Source: a virus
Direction: 5' to 3' (one strand)
DNA length: 64,000 nt
Virus record (IMG/VR): IMGVR_UViG_3300025864_000001
Location: 14,469 to 78,468 of that record
Position numbers and translations under genes: made by a program. Numbering within the stretch: position 1 is the first letter of the stretch; every line of letters begins with the position of its first letter. This document shows positions 45,453-53,652 of the stretch, in pieces. A model generated the notes under the pieces. The model was given only the letters and a program-made list of their open reading frames with translations, was not told where the DNA came from and searched no databases.

Positions 45453-48263
45453 TTAAATATTTCGTTCGCTTGGTGTTGAAAATATTACTATCGAATCAAT
45501 TCTTACTTTCTCATCGTGTTCCTCGGTGTTCAACTTCACAAAACAGTATCTTCCTCTCATTGCCCTTCCATTCATCTTTCTGTCATTAAGACTTATAAAA
45601 CTACCCTTTGAGTTTTCATCTTTAAGTACCTCTCCAAAGAACACCCCTTCTCTCCTGTCCCAAATCGGAACATTGCTTTCCATGATGTCATTGCCTCCCG
45701 ATGCTTCTGTGGGTATGTAAACATATTTGGGTAATGAGTTCATCTCGTGATCTGCAAACAGCGCAATCGCATTATAAACCTTATTCCTGACAGGTTCTAT
45801 GTTCGACACAACCTCTATCTCTGCATAAGTAGGCACTCCGACCCATGAAAGATAATCCTGTCCCTCATCAACATTCATTATCCAAACCCTTTGATGATAC
45901 AAATGTGCGAAGAAATTTCCTAAGTGGACGTATGATTCGGTTATTTGATTGATTCGCGATATGTACCGACCCTGCTTCTCACTGAAAATAACACCCCGTA
46001 CCTCGTCTCCCATCCTGAACGTCAACCATATCTCATCATGCTCATTATTAGCACCTGTGCGTGTCTCTAAGGTCTTACCGCCACCGTTTGCCTGTATCCA
46101 CTTAATAAGGTCTTTGAACCACCGCTTCATCTTAATATCCAAGACTATCTGACCATTGGGTGCTGACCGAATAAATTTACCCTGTGAGTGATCCCAATAA
46201 TAAAGATTCCTGCCATTGACCATGATACTATCGGGGTGCTGACATCCATAATCCGATTCCATAGGTCGTTGTTCTGCAAGGAACTTATCTGTAAGGGTGA
46301 ACTGCTCCGTGCCATCAGGATTAAAAGTCTGTATGCGGTTGATGTAGATGCTCGTCTCTTTATACATCTGAATGACTTTCAGCGTGTATCCTACCTCCCT
46401 GAGTCCTGTAATATCACCGTTCCTCTTTGGTAAGTCCATAAAGTCATCAAAAGTAAAATGAGCGATGTTGTTTGTCCGCGTGCCGGTTATCAGGAATCCA
46501 CCGTGGCGTATTCTCTCATCCAACACCCTCTGTCTCTGACTGAGATCGTCAAGGAACGGAAATCCTATGGATGTTAGTCTATTTGTAACAATCTGGTCTC
46601 TCCACCAATCGCTCGGGAACATGCTCTCGGCCCAGAATGGTTGTATCTCGGTTGACTCAAACTTATAGTTTAGTCTATAATATTTCCAACTATCATTTGC
46701 AGTATTATTAACCTCGGCAGCAACAATACATACTCCATTTGCATCGAAGGACTGATCAACGTCTCCTTTATGATACCTATTGCCAAATACATCAGTTGCA
46801 ATATCAAATACCATCCCCGTGCCATAAGCAACCGTCTGAGACAGTCCTTTACGTGGTCGATAAACCTCTACAAGAATATTAGTTTCGTTGACAAATAGAT
46901 TAGGGCGGTGTGTAGCTTGAAAAATCAACCAATCACCACCAATAGGTTCTTCATCGTACTGAGTTCCTGTTGCTTCAATCTCATAATCATAAACGAACCC
47001 GCCACCAATGGCCTCTCCATAATATGTTGTCTGATTAATAATTCCCATAAGCCTTAACCGATCTCCTGCGAGCCAATCATAAGGGGGCACTCTCCACCTA
47101 TTATTTTGAGTCTGCGTCCATACAATAGTATCTGCAATATTTAATGAGAATCGGTTCACTGCGCCTGCAAGTGCGGTAATATTATTTGCCCTCATCTGCA
47201 AAAAATAATCCATAGAGACGTTACCAAAATAAACTATCTCATAAGACTCTGCCCATGAAGGAGGTTTATGATTAATCTTAAAGACCAGTTTTGCTATTGT
47301 CTCAAAAAGATTATTAGAATCTTCCGAATAGAAAGGTATATAAACTGTAAATATTGGTGTTTTAATTACGGAACAACACCTCCCTGCCCGATCTTTATAT
47401 ACTATTCCAAAAGCATGAGTAGCACCACATTTAAGAATCGGAAAAGTTACTGTATTGCCATAAGAGAGAATGTATGCGGCAAAATAAAAATCTTTAAATA
47501 CTGTGGTTACGTCTCCCGCTTCAAGTGTCGGTGTTTGCTTAAATAGTCTGTATCTTGTGTATATCCATATAGAATGCCCATCTGCGGAAACACCTACATA
47601 TTCAAATCCTCTTGCATTAAGATCGACAATAAGTCCTCCTACAACTGTTGTATAAATATCTCCGGGTGCTGCTGTATATGATGCGGTCATATTGGCAATA
47701 CCCTCCGAGTCATTCTCTACAGTGATATTATAAGATGATCCTTCTACAATTATATCAGGAATTGTCACTACGGCAACACCTACTATCTTACGAAAGGTCA
47801 TCTCCCCTACCCTACCTAACTGATACCAATAAAGATTAGCAGGGTCACCAACACCACTTGATTCAGGTATCTGCCCTATTGGAGAAGTTGCTATACAGGC
47901 ATAGTAATACGCATTATAAGTAACTACATCGCCTTTATAATACTGAGTAAAATCATTCCATACGGGTGCTACTGAATTTGCTATTGTTGTGCCAATTTGA
48001 TGAAACGTCAATGCAAGATCAGTTCTCGGAGACCGTAACGACACATTCTCATAAGAGAGTTCAACCTCTATATTCGCCTCAACAACATCATAACCCTCGG
48101 TGATCTTACCAAACACCACGGCATTGCCTCCTACAAGTTCCATGTGACCTGCTACAATAGGCACATAGGTAAATGGCTCTGCGATACTGCTTGCAGGAAT
48201 GATCTCCTTTACCCTGTCATTGTAAAAGGCTACGTCAATATCCGTGTTGTGAGAACCAATCAT
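45453..48263 (-). CDS. tail muzzle/stabilisation protein, C-terminal part (CBM5/12-like insert)
   Basis: FYND, FGIVYKDRAGR, KPPSWAESY, GDITGL, DYGCQHPDS, RREG.F, GRAMRGRY motifs of crAss-type stabilisation proteins. Confidence 0.8.
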   Translation of the reverse strand: MIGSHNTDIDVAFYNDRVKEIIPASSIAEPFTYVPIVAGHMELVGGNAVVFGKITEGYDVVEANIEVELSYENVSLRSPRTDLALTFHQIGTTIANSVAPVWNDFTQYYKGDVVTYNAYYYACIATSPIGQIPESSGVGDPANLYWYQLGRVGEMTFRKIVGVAVVTIPDIIVEGSSYNITVENDSEGIANMTASYTAAPGDIYTTVVGGLIVDLNARGFEYVGVSADGHSIWIYTRYRLFKQTPTLEAGDVTTVFKDFYFAAYILSYGNTVTFPILKCGATHAFGIVYKDRAGRCCSVIKTPIFTVYIPFYSEDSNNLFETIAKLVFKINHKPPSWAESYEIVYFGNVSMDYFLQMRANNITALAGAVNRFSLNIADTIVWTQTQNNRWRVPPYDWLAGDRLRLMGIINQTTYYGEAIGGGFVYDYEIEATGTQYDEEPIGGDWLIFQATHRPNLFVNETNILVEVYRPRKGLSQTVAYGTGMVFDIATDVFGNRYHKGDVDQSFDANGVCIVAAEVNNTANDSWKYYRLNYKFESTEIQPFWAESMFPSDWWRDQIVTNRLTSIGFPFLDDLSQRQRVLDERIRHGGFLITGTRTNNIAHFTFDDFMDLPKRNGDITGLREVGYTLKVIQMYKETSIYINRIQTFNPDGTEQFTLTDKFLAEQRPMESDYGCQHPDSIMVNGRNLYYWDHSQGKFIRSAPNGQIVLDIKMKRWFKDLIKWIQANGGGKTLETRTGANNEHDEIWLTFRMGDEVRGVIFSEKQGRYISRINQITESYVHLGNFFAHLYHQRVWIMNVDEGQDYLSWVGVPTYAEIEVVSNIEPVRNKVYNAIALFADHEMNSLPKYVYIPTEASGGNDIMESNVPIWDRREGVFFGEVLKDENSKGSFISLNDRKMNGRAMRGRYCFVKLNTEEHDEKVRIDSIVIFSTPSERNI

Positions 48264-48264
48264 T

Positions 48265-48717
48265 TTAACTTATATAAATTAGGCCAAGGGTGTTCCACTT
48301 TATTGTGCTTGTGCCATTATTGACTACTTCGTTACCGGTTATGTCTCCCGTGAACTCTATCTGGGCCCTTATTTTTGATGTTGCCTGAACACCTGTGTTC
48401 TCAAACAAAATACCAAATTTATAATTCAGCGTGGCTCCGGGACCAATAACCTTATCATCTAAGTCGAGATAATAGTTATACACTCCTGCACTCGGACTAT
48501 GCTCTACCGATATCTTGCCTGAGACAGCCACTCCACCTGTGGTGTATTTACCACCGACATCAGTAATCTCTTTTGCCACAACATCAGATACAAATTGCTG
48601 TGTGCTGGCATTGGGAACATGTGTGCTATTGAGAAGCATGAGATACAATGTCTCCGCGACAAACTTATCAGCGACTTCTTTTTTTACAAACTTTGGAATA
48701 CAACTTAAATTTGCCAT
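48265..48717 (-). CDS. small virion (minor tail-type) protein inserted in the split muzzle locus
   Basis: LMLL...VSDVVAKEI..GKYTTGG..LDLDD..GT.TIKWN..G pattern. Confidence 0.65.
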   Translation of the reverse strand: MANLSCIPKFVKKEVADKFVAETLYLMLLNSTHVPNASTQQFVSDVVAKEITDVGGKYTTGGVAVSGKISVEHSPSAGVYNYYLDLDDKVIGPGATLNYKFGILFENTGVQATSKIRAQIEFTGDITGNEVVNNGTSTIKWNTLGLIYIS

Positions 48718-48729
48718 ATCATTATATTT

Positions 48730-50373
48730 TTATGTCCATCTACCATAAAAAGTTTCATATACACGACCCTCCCCGACCCTGTCAGCATAGAAGGTAACAT
48801 AATCTCCACTGGTGTAATCTCCTGTATAATAGAGTTCAATTTCAGTAGCAGAAAGTATATTATAAACATGTATCCAGTCATTTTCAGATGGCCATAATAT
48901 ACCCCATGAGTCACCAGTTGTGGTTACTGTAATTGTTTTTCTATGACCTTCTCCTGCACCTTCGAAGTTCCATGAAGCAGGACTAATTGAAATTGACAAA
49001 GCAGTACTATAAGTGGTTGTAAGCGTTGCGGTAGTGGAATTTGCACCCGTGCCACCGGTACTATAAGCCCTTACACGATAATAGTAGAATGTATGCTCAG
49101 TTAATCCAATAACATCAGCATTTAGAACAGTGCCAAGAATCTTGCTATCATATCCTGCTACAAACGTGGCAAAATTATCAGTAGACACGTCAAGATAATA
49201 TCCTACTGCCCCTGATACTGCCTGCCATTTAGCCCTGAAACTTGTTGACAAGACATTATCTGCACCCATATTTATTGGCACACCAAAACTCACGTTCTCC
49301 ACGGTTGGAATCATCACCGCCATAGTTAAGGTTATATATCCCGGTTCAGATGTTACTGATACCTCTCCACCACGTTCCTGTTCTTCAAACTTATTGATAG
49401 TCTCAATCAGGAACCACTTGGATGGGTCTTGGCTACTCCTGCCTATGATCTCTATGGCACGTACTTCTTCTCCACCTGAGTTAACCTTTATGTTTAATTG
49501 ATTATTCAGTGAGATCATCTCATTAGCGAGTCCGGTGGCTGTTTCTTCTTCTGCCTGTGGCACGGGAACGATACTTGCAGGAGAAAAGGTACTCTTTCTC
49601 CAATCCATGTACACATAGCGATATGCCACCTGAAATAATGTCTGCCTGAGATTATTTATCTTACGTTTATCATCCGATTCATAACTCACTACTGGCGGGT
49701 GTACGGGTGGCACGGGTTCAAAGTAAAAGTTCTTAACATCCATCGAGTAATACGCATCCTCAATAAGACAAAGCCTTGTCCAATACGTGCCAACATCAAG
49801 TACAAAACTGTCTGTCCTTGGCTCATGTCCGAGATTATTATGAATACGACTCTTGTAGAAGTTATTGCCATTACTGACAATCTGATCAATGCCATAGGTG
49901 TCTATTGCACTCCACTCCACTGTCACCGGATACTGACCATAGCCAATCTTATAATAGAAGGATTTTTTGGCACGTGCGATATCCATCTGATAGATAGGAT
50001 TCAGGTTATCCGTCCACACGAGTCTGCCATGCACCACACGGGCATTGTAAATCTTATGATCTCTGTCAAAGCCAATATCATTGTACTTATCGTAGTACAC
50101 CACTACCTGTTCCCTGGTGTCAATGTTTATCTCTATTATCCATGCTCCTCCAAGTAACGTATCAATATAAAATACATATAGGCATCTCATCTCTGGGTCA
50201 ATGCAATTACCACACAGGAGAATATTTGTGATGTACGAGGGGATATTAGTAGGACTAAGGGTATTGGTGTCCTTAATAAGCCTCACCGACCTGAAATAAG
50301 TCTTTAATGCAGATGTCTTTGTGGCTGCTGCGCTTGTACTTGAAAGGGATAATATCTTTGCGTAATCACTCAT
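48730..50373 (-). CDS. tail muzzle protein, middle part, with a FISUMP C-terminal strand, CBM-like, FN3 and BACON-like domains
   Basis: LVWTDNLNP, FQVAYRYVY.D..S.FSP.S muzzle motifs; FN3 SFRAKWQAVSGA.GY.LDVS..YYYRVRAY; likely start ATG 50373. Confidence 0.75.
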   Translation of the reverse strand: MSDYAKILSLSSTSAAATKTSALKTYFRSVRLIKDTNTLSPTNIPSYITNILLCGNCIDPEMRCLYVFYIDTLLGGAWIIEINIDTREQVVVYYDKYNDIGFDRDHKIYNARVVHGRLVWTDNLNPIYQMDIARAKKSFYYKIGYGQYPVTVEWSAIDTYGIDQIVSNGNNFYKSRIHNNLGHEPRTDSFVLDVGTYWTRLCLIEDAYYSMDVKNFYFEPVPPVHPPVVSYESDDKRKINNLRQTLFQVAYRYVYMDWRKSTFSPASIVPVPQAEEETATGLANEMISLNNQLNIKVNSGGEEVRAIEIIGRSSQDPSKWFLIETINKFEEQERGGEVSVTSEPGYITLTMAVMIPTVENVSFGVPINMGADNVLSTSFRAKWQAVSGAVGYYLDVSTDNFATFVAGYDSKILGTVLNADVIGLTEHTFYYYRVRAYSTGGTGANSTTATLTTTYSTALSISISPASWNFEGAGEGHRKTITVTTTGDSWGILWPSENDWIHVYNILSATEIELYYTGDYTSGDYVTFYADRVGEGRVYETFYGRWT

Positions 50374-50375
50374 AA

Positions 50376-52175
50376 TTAAATATCTCTCATACACCTCACT
50401 GAAAATCCATTATGCTTATTATTATTGTTTTCAATGCAACTAATTAATGTTGACTGTATATCTCTGGTATATGCAGTCGTTCCTGCACTTTGAGGAGTGG
50501 TCCAGTAAGACGATAGTGTATTTATACCACTGAAAGTTCCCACGGTATTCCTCATGCCTCCCCCTACTGCCTTGAAACCAATTTCATCTGAAGCACCTGT
50601 GTTTGGCGTATTCCAATGGATTAATCCCATTTCCTTTAATTTTCCCCCTGCGACACCTGTTCCGCCTAATGCTGCTATTAAAGTATTATAGTCGGTTCTC
50701 GTACCAACTCTCCATCCATTAGATGCTATTCCTAATTGTTGGAATTGCCCATCTGCGGCTAACCCATGAGCATTATTTATTCCATACCAATCATAGAGAG
50801 CACCGTAATCCTTGTTTATTATGTCGTTATTATACCAACAATATGCTCCTATCACATCTGCGGCCCAATCGCCATTAACGTTTAGGTTTGGGACTACCGA
50901 ACCATCAGCATACTTTGTAGTCTTTAGGTTTTCCACGAGCCATTCCTGATTACCAATAATTACAGTATGGTATTCGTTGCCGTCAATATCAATAATTCCA
51001 TCCGGTGCTTCATCTGCCAGCCATAATAATCCTGTACTACCCAATAGATCATAGACAAGATCACTTCCAATAGCTGCACCGTAATAGAGAGAATTATCTA
51101 TAATTAAATCATTACAAAGTTTAGCCGCGCTGGCTGTATGTCCTACCTGATTAATTATTGCTGTGGTATTTGCTTGTCCTGTGCCTATTAAAGTGCCGGT
51201 TCCTGCAAATCCAGAAATAACATTACTCCAGTCAGAAGGAATTAAGTCGTTTAATGCAGCTTCTAAATAATCATTTCCTGATTTCCAAAAGATCAATCCT
51301 CCAGCAGGGCCTATATCTCTTAAATTATAAACAGTAGTTGAAGTAAAGGCACGACAAGGACGGAATCTGTTACTTTCGTTTTTAAATATATTTCCATATT
51401 GAACTCCATCCCCAAAAGATTGAACCCATATTATAGATTCAGATGGGTGTGTTGTTTCTGATGATGTGAGATATAATGTATTTGAATAATCACCCATTAT
51501 ATCATAAAATCCACCAATTCCATGCAAATGGAGTTCAGTATACATTGCATTTAACTCATCCTTTGAAGGAAGGAACCAATCACTATATGAAAAATAAGGT
51601 GAAATAATATCCATCCCAAAGCCTCCTCCTGGCATTGCTTTGAAGCCACTGCTGTCCGTTGCTACTGTGTGCGGATCATCCCACCAACCAATATCTTTTA
51701 GTTTGTCTCCTGCTACTGCCGCACCAAGTAGGTTTAAAATCAGCGTAGTAACTTCTGCTTCTGTCGGTACATGCCATCCCTCTGGACAAAAATCTGATGC
51801 TAAAATCTGATCATGCGTGTATAGTCCTCCAAAGACATCCCTGTTGTTCTCATCATCATTATAGACTTTGCTTCCGGGATAATTGGCATCCCAATTCTTT
51901 TTCATCCAGACTTGATTGCCAATTTTACATTCTAAAAATCCTGAATAGACGAATTGTCCACCAATGGCAGACCCGTAATAAGTTATTGCTGAATCAGGAT
52001 TTATAAGTATTTCGATTTCCGACTGGAGTGTTTCTGCAGGACCTTCGCCATGTTGCTGATCACTGCCACCCGTACGCACGTTTAACGCATCAGGATAATC
52101 CGAAGGCGGAAGATTTGCAGGATTGTCATCTGTGTTCAATCCTCCACGAAAGTCATGTAAGTCTTTCAGTTGCAT
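50376..52175 (-). CDS. muzzle N-terminus fused to FISUMP / permuted DUF1566 / FISUMP domains
   Basis: F.GGLNTDD..L...DY.DALNVR start; IGNQVWM..N, CPEGWHVP, GFSVRCMRD; DWFLPSKDEL, GPAGG. Confidence 0.8.
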   Translation of the reverse strand: MQLKDLHDFRGGLNTDDNPANLPPSDYPDALNVRTGGSDQQHGEGPAETLQSEIEILINPDSAITYYGSAIGGQFVYSGFLECKIGNQVWMKKNWDANYPGSKVYNDDENNRDVFGGLYTHDQILASDFCPEGWHVPTEAEVTTLILNLLGAAVAGDKLKDIGWWDDPHTVATDSSGFKAMPGGGFGMDIISPYFSYSDWFLPSKDELNAMYTELHLHGIGGFYDIMGDYSNTLYLTSSETTHPSESIIWVQSFGDGVQYGNIFKNESNRFRPCRAFTSTTVYNLRDIGPAGGLIFWKSGNDYLEAALNDLIPSDWSNVISGFAGTGTLIGTGQANTTAIINQVGHTASAAKLCNDLIIDNSLYYGAAIGSDLVYDLLGSTGLLWLADEAPDGIIDIDGNEYHTVIIGNQEWLVENLKTTKYADGSVVPNLNVNGDWAADVIGAYCWYNNDIINKDYGALYDWYGINNAHGLAADGQFQQLGIASNGWRVGTRTDYNTLIAALGGTGVAGGKLKEMGLIHWNTPNTGASDEIGFKAVGGGMRNTVGTFSGINTLSSYWTTPQSAGTTAYTRDIQSTLISCIENNNNKHNGFSVRCMRDI

Positions 52176-52956: not shown

Positions 52957-53652
52957 CTATTGGTTTTGAGGTTTAATTACCATATCATTTGCGGTGTCGG
53001 GCAATGGTTTTTTACTCATCAGGTCAACTACTTGACGTATGATATTATCTTCCATGCCACTCGGAATTGCCACATCATCATAATCGTCCACAACATCAAA
53101 TGGAGTTATTAACAGGATGTCAACACTCGTTATAAGTGTATCTGGTGCGACGGGTAGTTTTTCAAGCCATAACATATGACTTGGTTCGCCTGCACCGATA
53201 TTGACATTACTCTGCTCAAGTCTAAACGTAGGATAATCATCCATAGTGCTTACTTCCAACTCATCAAAGATAGCATTTGCCGTGGCTTCAATAGGTGCAA
53301 ATAGCCACTGATCTCCAATGGCGCCACCATAATACACAGAACACTCATAATGACTCTTTATCTGACGTATGCTCATCATGTCGGGTAACTGAACCGGTGC
53401 AAATGGCAGCAAGCAATAAGCTCTTGCGCCACACTGATTAACAACTGCGCATACATAAGTCTTGCTCCACGCATCGAGCTGACTGAAGTCACTGAATTTC
53501 TTCCCATTTAGCCACGTGTTGTATATTGCCTGATTGAATACATTGTTAAGATGTTGTTTCACAATCTCAGGATGGTAGATGCCTTTTGAATCCCCGGCAT
53601 TATCCGAACTCATGAAGTCCAATATGGTGTCGACCAAATTTATCTTTTTCAT
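52957..53652 (-). CDS. tail ring protein
   Basis: 231 aa in the ring-gene run; contains YYGGAIG. Confidence 0.6.
   Translation of the reverse strand: MKKINLVDTILDFMSSDNAGDSKGIYHPEIVKQHLNNVFNQAIYNTWLNGKKFSDFSQLDAWSKTYVCAVVNQCGARAYCLLPFAPVQLPDMMSIRQIKSHYECSVYYGGAIGDQWLFAPIEATANAIFDELEVSTMDDYPTFRLEQSNVNIGAGEPSHMLWLEKLPVAPDTLITSVDILLITPFDVVDDYDDVAIPSGMEDNIIRQVVDLMSKKPLPDTANDMVIKPQNQ

What the first reader, a model, noticed from the sequence alone, without database searches (positions are those of the whole stretch)
50265..51940. Nested domain insertions: one FISUMP domain divided between two genes
Seen: FISUMP copy 1 begins at KIGNQVWMKKNW and runs to GFKAMPGGG. It is interrupted by DUF1566, resumes as YDLLGSTGLLWLADEA, and is interrupted again by a complete FISUMP copy 2 that ends at the stop (SVRCMRDI*). 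Its missing end, SDYAKILSL..KTYFRSVRLIKD, forms the first ~36 aa of the next ORF, in a different frame. Inference: three levels of nesting (muzzle > FISUMP1 > DUF1566 and FISUMP2), with the split domain acting as a natural complementation clasp between two polypeptides.
Basis: partly seen in the sequence, partly recalled or inferred. Interest (0 to 1): 0.78.

Follow-up and report, generated by a model that had tools for sequence, protein, structure and literature searches.

The report
Lectin domain split between two genes
In this peat or soil crass-like phage, a sugar-binding-type (FISUMP) domain on the tail tip is encoded half in one gene and half in the next, so the two proteins probably lock together by completing one fold, and the break point is where related phages swap different adhesion modules.

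Summary
ORF A (50376-52175, minus strand, 599 aa) has a FISUMP domain that stops at about position 157 of a 193-position FISUMP profile. A DUF1566-type module interrupts it. A complete second FISUMP follows and ends at a TAA stop. ORF B starts 2 nt later, in the -1 frame. Its first 36 residues align to the missing profile positions 162-192. Joining the pieces adds 10-18 bits, above all 600 controls, in the window and in five relatives. Another protein (P0374) carries the same peptide as the end of an unbroken FISUMP domain (E 1e-9). Three homologues are unsplit. All 8 relatives with DNA in hand have the same gene boundary, with different stops, spacings and frames, so neither a sequencing error nor a conserved recoding signal explains it. 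A two-chain model passes (ipSAE 0.74; best control 0.00), but it is confident only for ORF B residues 24-36. Metagenome contigs share the ORF B 5' end and diverge at or within 30 nt upstream of its start codon into other ORF A ends. My reading: a trans-completed lectin-like fold clips a swappable adhesin carrier onto the tail-tip protein. This is a new variant of a known kind; the closest solved case is the split nozzle of phage A1002. No experiment was done. Three other unverified first-reader notes of this scan cover the same stretch of this genome.

The parts
51927..52175 (-). ORF A residues 1-83: the conserved N-terminus of the tail-tip (muzzle/nozzle-like) protein, upstream of FISUMP1.
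   Evidence: Well conserved in the 83-row alignment A4 (invariant D16, N32, R34, Y66, G68, G72, F75, Y77, G79; many more nearly invariant). In the unsplit homologues it lies in one chain with the muzzle body.
51606..51926 (-). FISUMP copy 1, N-part (ORF A residues 84-190), from KIGNQVWMKKNW to PGGGFGMDI.
   Evidence: PF09603 at 64 bits, profile positions 2-133 of 187. My own FISUMP profile matches positions 34-136.
51087..51605 (-). DUF1566/Lcl_C-type module (ORF A residues 191-363), inserted inside FISUMP1. It begins DWFLPSKDEL and ends AAKLCNDLIIDNSL.
   Evidence: PF07603 at 29.2 bits, below the 34.9 cut-off; residues 194-275 match profile positions 39-117. The nearest relatives P0273, P0274 and P0276 lack this insert at this site. 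The same module sits at other loops in P0272, L001, P0196 and P0354.
51006..51086 (-). FISUMP copy 1, middle piece (ORF A residues 364-390), YYGAAIGSDLVYDLLGSTGLLWLADEA. It is the last strand before the split.
   Evidence: Homologous to a segment that is contiguous in all relatives. Once joined, it extends the profile alignment to about position 154.
50379..50984 (-). FISUMP copy 2, complete (ORF A residues 398-599). It occupies the split site of copy 1 and ends at the stop.
   Evidence: PF09603 positions 1-187 of 187; TIGR02145 at 154.9 bits. AF2 model with pLDDT 94.7. C-type-lectin/FGE-like fold: Z 9.3 to 2y3c and 8.1 to Lcl-C 8q4e.
50371..50378 (-). Gene junction: TAA stop of ORF A (50376-50378), a 2-nt spacer, then the ATG of ORF B (50371-50373). 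ORF B is in the -1 frame.
   Evidence: Read directly from the sequence. All 8 relatives with DNA have the same boundary, with stop-to-start distances from a 4-nt overlap to 9 nt. Metagenome contigs diverge here, at 50373/50374 and 50381; one variant diverges at 50403.
50266..50373 (-). ORF B residues 1-36, MSDYAKILSL..KTYFRSVRLIKDT: the missing C-terminal 3-4 strands of FISUMP copy 1.
   Evidence: Aligns to profile positions 163-192. Adds 14.6 bits when joined, above all 600 controls. Matches the contiguous C-end of P0374's FISUMP domain at 26.9 bits, E 1e-9. Complex model ipSAE 0.74 against a best control of 0.00.
48730..50265 (-). Remainder of ORF B: muzzle-like body, one fn3 domain and a variable C-terminal part.
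   Evidence: phrog_14478, E 3.3e-12; fn3 PF00041 at residues 373-456 of the 554-aa GTG-start form. Residues 61-360 are conserved, with mean majority-residue fraction 0.69.

Best explanation
ORF A and ORF B are two separate, closely spaced genes (probably translationally coupled) that together encode the proximal part of a crass-like tail-tip (muzzle/nozzle-type) protein. A lectin-like FISUMP domain that loops out of this protein is cut at a beta-hairpin turn. ORF A holds about the first 157 of 193 profile positions. ORF B's first 36 residues hold the last three or four strands, including the terminal strand that pairs with the domain's first strand.

After translation, the ORF B peptide completes the FISUMP1 fold in trans. 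This clips ORF A, and whatever adhesion modules ORF A carries at its free C-terminus, onto the muzzle.

The break lies at the site where this clade inserts and exchanges cassettes: FISUMP2, a DUF1566-type module, fn3, LRR-type and others. On one side is the conserved FISUMP1 N-part. On the other is the conserved 5' end of ORF B. The two act as recombination arms. In the window the cassette is a full FISUMP2, and an extra DUF1566-type module sits in an earlier loop of FISUMP1.

Shown here: the homology of the pieces, the conservation of the split, the existence of unsplit forms, and the divergence of co-occurring strains at the junction. Inferred: physical complementation, translational coupling, and the roles in adhesion and host range.
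For: 1. Homology of the pieces.
- Joined constructs reach profile position 192 of 193 and gain 10-18 bits. That is above all 300 shuffled and 300 random controls in each of six phages.
- A profile of ORF B's first 70 residues hits the contiguous C-end of an unbroken FISUMP domain in P0374 (26.9 bits, E 1e-9), and hits P0364 and P0379 more weakly.

2. Conservation of the truncation and the split.
- In none of the 88 ORF A-type homologues does the first FISUMP domain reach the end of the profile. In 74 it stops at positions 153-167, most often 156-158; the other alignments end at 103-141 or run on to 172-185.
- 26 representatives of 50%-identity clusters of ORF B start with the peptide within their first 8 residues.
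- All 8 relatives with DNA have a stop and then an ATG at this spot. The variants are TAATG overlap, ATGA overlap, TAA+2 nt, TAA+3 nt and a TAATAA double stop, in three relative frames.
- ORF B residues 1-36 are as conserved as the muzzle core (0.68 against 0.69).

3. Unsplit forms. P0196, P0354 and P0394 carry the same N-part, one insert and the same peptide in a single chain. P0196 and P0354 fall in different well-supported clades nested among split forms.

4. Structure.
- The FISUMP2 model (pLDDT 94.7) puts the split in the turn between strands 157-165 and 170-177.
- Complex model of ORF A 60-397 with ORF B 1-45: ipSAE 0.74 (runs 0.77, 0.71, 0.74), best of 3 controls 0.00. This mark was reached by 58 of 80 solved complexes and by 2 of 110 mismatched pairs; the counts hold only roughly because my own alignments were used. 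Partner pLDDT is at least 61, and the runs share at least 58% of contacts.
- Contacts join ORF B 24-36 to ORF A 87-95, 115-122 and 133-137.

5. Cassette exchange.
- Among 86 split homologues, ORF A ends fall into at least six classes.
- In peat and soil metagenome contigs the ORF B 5' part is shared by several strains. Their contigs break off at 50373/50374/50381/50403 into sequences that encode other ORF A ends: the P0276-type end, the P0273-type end, two DUF1566-module ends and one cassette-less end.
Against: - There is no experimental evidence that the two proteins bind or that FISUMP1 folds.
- The complex model is confident only for ORF B residues 24-36. It is not confident for residues 1-23 or for their expected hairpin partner, the middle piece 364-390. 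Halves of a split domain can also pass such a test by likeness to known folds.
Their continuity rests on predicted proteins from single contigs.
- The 'muzzle' assignment is indirect.
- Many cassettes, including FISUMP2 and the DUF1566 module, could in principle sit in a loop without a break. The split is therefore not topologically required in the window itself.
Confidence: 0.8

Rival explanations
1. FISUMP1 is a decayed remnant that no longer folds. ORF A would be held on the tail tip only by its N-terminal 83 residues. The ORF B N-terminal peptide would be conserved for another reason, for example as part of the muzzle body or because it overlaps a translation re-initiation region.
For: The complex model is not confident about ORF B residues 1-23 or the middle piece. 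ORF A residues 1-83 are well conserved and could be the real anchor. AF2 of the unsplit P0196 gave pLDDT below 50 for the whole FISUMP1 region.
Against: Both halves keep FISUMP-specific residues across all 88 ORF A-type homologues and 26 ORF B cluster representatives. The joined score gain is specific to the real peptide. The peptide is as conserved as the muzzle core. Its best-modelled contacts are the first strand and core strands of FISUMP1. The low AF2 confidence came with a shallow 45-row alignment.
Confidence: 0.1
2. Programmed recoding (a frameshift or stop read-through) makes one fused ORF A-ORF B polypeptide, so the domain is not really divided between two chains.
For: The genes are 2 nt apart. 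One extra T in the TTT run before the stop would fuse the frames. Three natural homologues are fused.
Against: Across relatives the junctions differ in frame (0, -1 and overlapping), in stop codon (TAA, TGA, a TAATAA double stop) and in spacing. No common slippery site or signal exists, and ORF B always keeps its own ATG. There is no X XXY YYZ heptamer at the window junction (my own reading of the sequence).
Confidence: 0.05
3. The split is an assembly or sequencing frameshift, or a recent inactivating mutation, in this one contig.
For: The junction lies next to short homopolymers (TTT, AA, TT).
Against: The same gene boundary is present in 8 independent relatives at 46-74% identity, with different junction sequences. 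ORF A with this exact sequence is on record from 2 contigs.
Confidence: 0.02

Closest known systems
Split nozzle of Pseudomonas podophage A1002 (gp39 nozzle-rope plus gp42 nozzle-base; cryo-EM, PMC13730344)
   Same: A podovirus tail-tip protein that is one chain elsewhere is divided between two gene products. The missing beta-strands of truncated domains are supplied in trans by the partner. One half carries the receptor-binding appendages.
   Different: In A1002 the divided domains are the nozzle's own platform and beta-propeller. Here the division runs through an inserted lectin-like FISUMP domain, and the cut coincides with a cassette-insertion hotspot. The A1002 case is solved by cryo-EM; this one is only predicted. 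No sequence relationship was tested.
Muzzle protein gp44 of PhicrAss001 (PMC10172136)
   Same: A tail-tip protein built by nested domain insertions: a beta-propeller with IG1 and IG2 inserted, and the crass domain inserted into IG2 loops. Its length varies between crassviruses through insertions. The gene position is similar, and there are weak crAss_MUZ_C and phrog_14478 matches.
   Different: gp44 is a single polypeptide, and the paper describes no FISUMP or DUF1566 domain in it. Here the protein is spread over ORF A, ORF B and ORF C, with a 150-aa gene between B and C. The Pfam match stays below the cut-off.
Donor-strand complementation in chaperone-usher pili (established knowledge, not tested here)
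   Same: An incomplete beta-sandwich-type fold in one polypeptide is completed by an N-terminal extension of the neighbouring polypeptide, which gives a very stable non-covalent joint.
   Different: Pilins lack one strand of an Ig-like fold and polymerise head to tail with chaperone help. Here three to four strands of a C-type-lectin/FGE-like fold come from the next gene's product in a presumed 1:1 heterodimer. This is an analogy only, not homology.
FISUMP / C-type-lectin-fold variable proteins of diversity-generating retroelements (TvpA 2y3c, Mtd 1yu0; PMC5758913 lists Fib_succ_major among target domains)
   Same: The fold class matches: Z 9.3 to TvpA and 6.9 to Mtd. The role as a variable ligand-binding tip on phage or cell surfaces is also shared.
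   Different: This phage genome has no reverse transcriptase. Variation here comes from exchanging whole cassettes, not from mutagenic retrohoming.

Membership tests
FISUMP / Fib_succ_major (PF09603, TIGR02145), copy 2 | A full-length match to the family profile, above the curated cut-off. | tested here: met
   PF09603 at 148.4 bits (cut-off 33.9), residues 405-597 matching profile positions 1-187 of 187. TIGR02145 at 154.9 bits (cut-off 41.65).
FISUMP / Fib_succ_major, copy 1 | A match above the cut-off for the N-terminal two-thirds of the domain. | tested here: met
   64 bits for residues 84-186 alone, matching profile positions 2-133 of 187.
FISUMP / Fib_succ_major, copy 1 | The whole domain lies in one polypeptide. 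| tested here: not met
   Profile positions from about 158 to 193 are encoded by ORF B residues 1-36, after a TAA stop and in another frame.
FISUMP / Fib_succ_major, copy 1 | The C-terminal piece is homologous to the end of a FISUMP domain. | tested here: met
   The joined score gain exceeds all 600 controls in six phages. The ORF B N-terminal profile hits the contiguous FISUMP C-end of P0374 at E 1e-9.
DUF1566 / Lcl_C (PF07603) | A match above the gathering score, in the order of the family profile. | tested here: inconclusive
   29.2 bits against a cut-off of 34.9. Only profile positions 39-117 match (residues 194-275). The GPAGG..AAKLC part, which comes first in canonical copies (L005b residues 120-227 match profile 4-117), follows here, so the module looks circularly permuted.
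Crassvirus muzzle protein (PF25729 crAss_MUZ_C; phrog_14478) | A match to the muzzle C-terminal domain above the cut-off. | tested here: inconclusive
   Window ORF C scores 15.1 bits. Three of four relatives score 18-24 bits at the same C-terminal place. All are below the 27-bit cut-off.
Crassvirus muzzle protein (PF25729 crAss_MUZ_C; phrog_14478) | Sequence or fold similarity of the body to known muzzle proteins. | tested here: inconclusive
   phrog_14478: E 3.3e-12 for ORF B and 2.9e-31 for ORF C. The profile search of PDB sequences found no muzzle chain. Foldseek with the low-confidence P0196 model hit 7qol_P only weakly (E 1.6e-3, TM 0.13).
Split nozzle with trans-completed domains (A1002 type) | Two adjacent gene products, each holding part of one domain, with the fold completed in the complex. 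| tested here: inconclusive
   The sequence side is met. The physical side is only predicted: ipSAE 0.74 against a best control of 0.00, a mark reached by 58 of 80 solved complexes and 2 of 110 mismatched pairs.
DGR variable protein | A reverse transcriptase and template repeat in the same element. | tested here: not met
   No PF00078 match in the complete 78.5-kb phage record. The control genomes did give matches.

The most novel reading that the evidence does not exclude
The split FISUMP domain is an evolved plug-in socket. Ending ORF A at the insertion point leaves the cassette's C-terminus free, so modules of any length or topology can be appended, from none at all to about 900 residues of LRR-type repeats. 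They are still clipped to the tail tip by fold complementation. The conserved half-domains on either side of the cassette serve as recombination arms, which lets co-occurring strains swap host-recognition modules at one gene junction. If so, this would be a natural split-lectin docking system that could be reused to display new binders on phage.
Probability: 0.45. Interest if true: 0.75.

Novelty: new variant of a known kind. Interest (0 to 1): 0.62.

Why it matters
Tail-tip adhesion modules are what a phage changes to follow its hosts. Here the changeable part sits on its own polypeptide. That polypeptide appears to be attached to the tail-tip protein by completing a lectin-like fold with strands from the next gene's product. 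Co-occurring strains differ at exactly that junction.

If binding is confirmed, this would be the second known case of a podovirus tail-tip protein divided with trans-completed domains, after A1002. It would be the first in which the divided fold is an inserted lectin-type domain that doubles as a cassette socket. It would also provide a small (36-residue) natural complementation tag for engineering.

It also matters for annotation. Family scans call ORF A a FISUMP protein and see nothing in the first 36 residues of ORF B, so the link between the two genes is missed.

Tried and rejected
- **Close relatives in GenBank phages:** megablast and tblastn found none.
- **The look-up of encoding contigs:** A metagenome scan with P0196 returned only another split relative, L009.
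- **Alignment A2:** a first mixed alignment of ORF A-type and ORF B-type proteins was misaligned and was discarded.
- **AF2 of the unsplit P0196:** run with a 45-row alignment, it gave mean pLDDT 65 and below 50 over all of FISUMP1. It says nothing about the clasp.
- **Foldseek with the P0196 model:** gave noise, plus a weak hit to the PhicrAss001 tail entry.
- **Foldseek of FISUMP2 against the PDB:** nothing at E <= 0.001. The fold was named from VIA-align instead.
- **Sequence searches of the PDB:** FISUMP2, ORF A residues 1-83 and the ORF B profile gave nothing relevant.
- **RNA evidence:** no RNA holder was listed among the sequencing runs, so nothing can be said about expression.
- **DGR idea:** rejected; the genome has no reverse transcriptase.
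- **Sequencing error and programmed frameshift:** both considered and rejected because the junctions differ between relatives.
- **ORF A residues 1-83 against the ORF B body:** not tested.
Full report
**Context**

The window is part of a complete 78.5-kb virus record with direct terminal repeats. The genes around the finding are on the minus strand and look like a crass-like tail module. ORF B and ORF C (45453-48263) match phrog_14478, with E 3.3e-12 and 2.9e-31. ORF C and three of four relatives give consistent but sub-threshold hits to the crassvirus muzzle C-terminal domain PF25729. I therefore call the protein muzzle-like and mark that label as indirect. No close relative exists among GenBank phages. 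IMG/VR holds seven related loci and JGI metagenomes hold one. Peat metagenome runs hold the sequence itself.

**The observation**

- ORF A (50376-52175, 599 aa) has two Pfam FISUMP stretches and a sub-threshold Lcl_C/DUF1566 hit.
- FISUMP copy 2 (residues 398-599) covers the whole profile and ends one residue before the TAA stop.
- FISUMP copy 1 (from residue 84) covers only profile positions 2-133 of 187.
- The junction reads GAT ATT TAA TT ATG AGT. ORF B starts 2 nt after the stop, in the -1 frame.
In five relatives the equivalent FDLLFDLLGDNCLLWLADE follows GFRAVPGG directly.
- The nearest relatives (P0273, P0274, P0276) read PGGGFGMDVMYYGTAIGSD.VYDLLGSTGLLWLADE with no insert. The window therefore carries a clean 173-residue insertion (residues 191-363) of a DUF1566-type module.

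**Does ORF B complete the domain?**

I built a 193-position FISUMP profile from 120 homologues of copy 2.

- With the filters off, the first 35 residues of all six ORF B proteins align to profile positions 161-167 through 192. Taken alone, the scores are insignificant.
- Joining each phage's N-part to its own ORF B residues 2-36 extends the alignment from about 154 to 192 and adds 10-18 bits.
- For the window the joined score is 90.2 bits. The 300 shuffled peptides gave 80.0 +/- 1.2 (max 86.1). The 300 random peptides gave 78.3 +/- 1.5 (max 83.3).
- The real peptide beat all 600 controls in each of the six phages.
- As an independent check, a profile of the ORF B N-terminus finds the same peptide as the contiguous C-terminal end of an unbroken FISUMP domain in an unrelated protein, P0374 (NAMMVYMSHDSAAAVIETAVKDYYFSVRLVKDE; 26.9 bits, E 1e-9). 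It also hits P0364 and P0379 more weakly.

**Conservation of the split**

- In none of the 88 ORF A-type homologues does the first FISUMP domain reach the end of the profile. In 74 it stops at positions 153-167, most often 156-158. The remaining alignments end earlier, at an insert, or run on to 172-185.
- A search of 1.84 billion representatives with ORF B gave 26 cluster representatives that begin with the peptide within their first 8 residues.
- All eight relatives with DNA have a stop followed by an ATG at this spot, but the details differ: TAATG overlap, ATGA overlap with a TGA stop, TAA plus 2 or 3 nt, and a TAATAA double stop plus 6 nt. The relative frames differ too.
- This rules out a sequencing error. 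It also argues against any shared recoding signal.
- The short distances, from a 4-nt overlap to 9 nt, suggest translational coupling. That is an inference.
- ORF B residues 1-36 are as conserved as the muzzle core (0.68 against 0.69 majority-residue fraction).

**Unsplit homologues**

Three predicted proteins carry everything in one chain:

- P0196 (861 aa) and P0354 (949 aa), each with a DUF1566-type module at the split site.
- P0394 (1063 aa), with an insert of about 270 residues containing repeats like SIDNGxxW. I read these as BNR-like from memory; Pfam reported no family for this insert.

In a tree of the ORF B region, P0196 and P0354 lie in different well-supported clades nested among split forms (two changes forced; midpoint root only). 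P0394 was found after the tree was built. Its first ten residues and much of its body match P0354 closely, so it probably belongs to the same lineage. All three inserts are of kinds whose ends can lie close together; that is my inference.

**Structure**

- AF2 of copy 2 with 121 sequences gave pLDDT 94.7.
- The fold is of the C-type-lectin/FGE-like class: Z 9.3 to TvpA 2y3c, 8.1 to Lcl-C 8q4e, 6.9 to Mtd 1yu0, and many C-type lectins at Z 5-6. By the tool's own caution, Z values in this range indicate the fold class only.
- When copy 1 is mapped onto this model, the split falls in the turn between strands 157-165 and 170-177. ORF B then supplies the last three or four strands.
- In the two-chain prediction (ORF A 60-397 with ORF B 1-45, using my own alignments A4 and A5) the median ipSAE was 0.74 (runs 0.77, 0.71, 0.74). 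The best of three controls was 0.00.
- That mark was reached by 58 of 80 solved complexes and by 2 of 110 mismatched pairs. The counts hold only roughly because my own alignments were used. Partner pLDDT was at least 61, and the runs shared at least 58% of contacts.
- The confident contacts join ORF B 24-36 to ORF A 87-95 (the first strand), 115-122 and 133-137. This matches the lectin-fold rule that the first and last strands pair, which is established knowledge.
- ORF B residues 1-23 and the middle piece are not confidently placed.
- A pass for halves of one domain may reflect likeness to known folds. It does not show binding.
- AF2 of the unsplit P0196 was too uncertain over FISUMP1 to add anything.

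**The split site as a cassette hotspot**

Among 86 split ORF A homologues (335-990 aa) the C-terminal ends fall into these classes:

| End type | Count |
|---|---|
| FISUMP-type | 37 |
| DUF1566-module | 14 |
| LRR-type | 8 |
| Three further classes | 6, 5, 4 |
| Unclassified | 12 |

- Contigs from peat and soil metagenome runs were laid on 49900-50900. Several strain variants cover the ORF B 5' part. Only the window's own strain covers most of FISUMP2.
- The variant contigs break off at 50373, 50374, 50381 and 50403.
- The loose ends translate to other ORF A termini: FTGNVTNNV (the end of P0276), EWTYGKKSG (the FISUMP2 end of P0273), KLCNDLVV-stop and LCDDLVIVH (DUF1566-module ends).
- In one 258-nt, low-depth contig the loose end reads TGLLWLADDE, then Ile and the stop. 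That would be a bare split with no cassette.
- The gene junction is therefore a recombination boundary between a variable ORF A tail and a conserved ORF B head.

**Mechanism proposed**

ORF A is a carrier for variable adhesion modules. It is fixed to the tail tip in two ways. One is the trans-completed FISUMP1 fold. The other, probably, is its conserved N-terminal 83 residues, which lie in the same chain as the muzzle body in the unsplit forms. Ending the chain at the insertion point frees the cassette's C-terminus, and the two half-domains provide homology for exchange.

**What is known**

- Nested insertions and length variation in the crassvirus muzzle are described (PMC10172136).
- A podovirus nozzle divided into two proteins that complete each other's platform and propeller domains has just been solved (A1002; PMC13730344).
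- FISUMP domains are listed among DGR target domains, but this phage has no reverse transcriptase.
- What is new here is the division of an inserted lectin-type domain at a cassette hotspot, conserved across a clade, with natural fused counterparts.

**Verdict**

It is a new variant of a known kind. Interest 0.62.

Noticed in passing
window 51087-51605 (-); P0272; L001:4595-5998; P0196; P0354: The DUF1566-type module always runs DWFLPS..R.CR.F, then GPAGG..AAKLCxDL. That order is circularly permuted relative to the Pfam Lcl_C profile. The module occurs as an insert at three different loops: FISUMP1 near profile position 136 (window), FISUMP1 near position 158 (L001, P0196, P0354) and FISUMP2 near position 42 (P0272). 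It behaves like a portable insertion cassette.
   Followed up: partly
L005:6196-6270 (+): In relative L005, ORF A is broken a second time by an in-frame TAA inside its fn3 domain (..YRVRAYN * VDMSENSNIITMKT). An ATG lies two codons after the stop and just before the last fn3 strand. This could be a second split domain or a nonsense mutation. It was seen in one locus only.
   Followed up: no
L004:4030-5994 (+), and P0282, P0288, P0294, P0314 and others: In many relatives FISUMP copy 2 is itself interrupted near profile position 43 by an insert of about 150 residues. That adds another level of nesting in those phages.
   Followed up: no
L002:4544-5380 (+), also L007 (a shorter reading frame in L003): An extra 278-aa ORF (..GIYKIQSKIKPERIYIGSS..) sits between the upstream structural gene and ORF A in these relatives but not in the window. 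From memory it looks like a GIY-YIG homing endonuclease; I did not scan it.
   Followed up: no
window 45453-50373 (-): The muzzle-like protein is divided further. ORF B matches phrog_14478 at profile positions 171-282 and ORF C at positions 857-1166, and a conserved 150-aa gene (48265-48717, phrog_644) lies between them. The same order is found in all relatives.
   Followed up: partly
window ORF A residues 65-77 and 364-376; ORF C (45453-48263); ORF 52957-53652: A YYGxAIGxxxxY/F motif recurs: before FISUMP1, inside the FISUMP1 middle piece of the window's subclade, and in two other tail proteins.
   Followed up: no
window 49900-50900 in runs X1-X3, X5: Peat and soil metagenome runs hold this phage and several strain variants. 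The summed contig depth over the ORF B 5' end is several times the depth over FISUMP2.
   Followed up: partly
P0394 residues 210-480: One unsplit homologue carries an insert of about 270 residues with four SxDxGxxW/F-like repeats at the FISUMP1 split site. It looks like a BNR/Asp-box propeller; that is from memory, and Pfam reported no family for it.
   Followed up: partly
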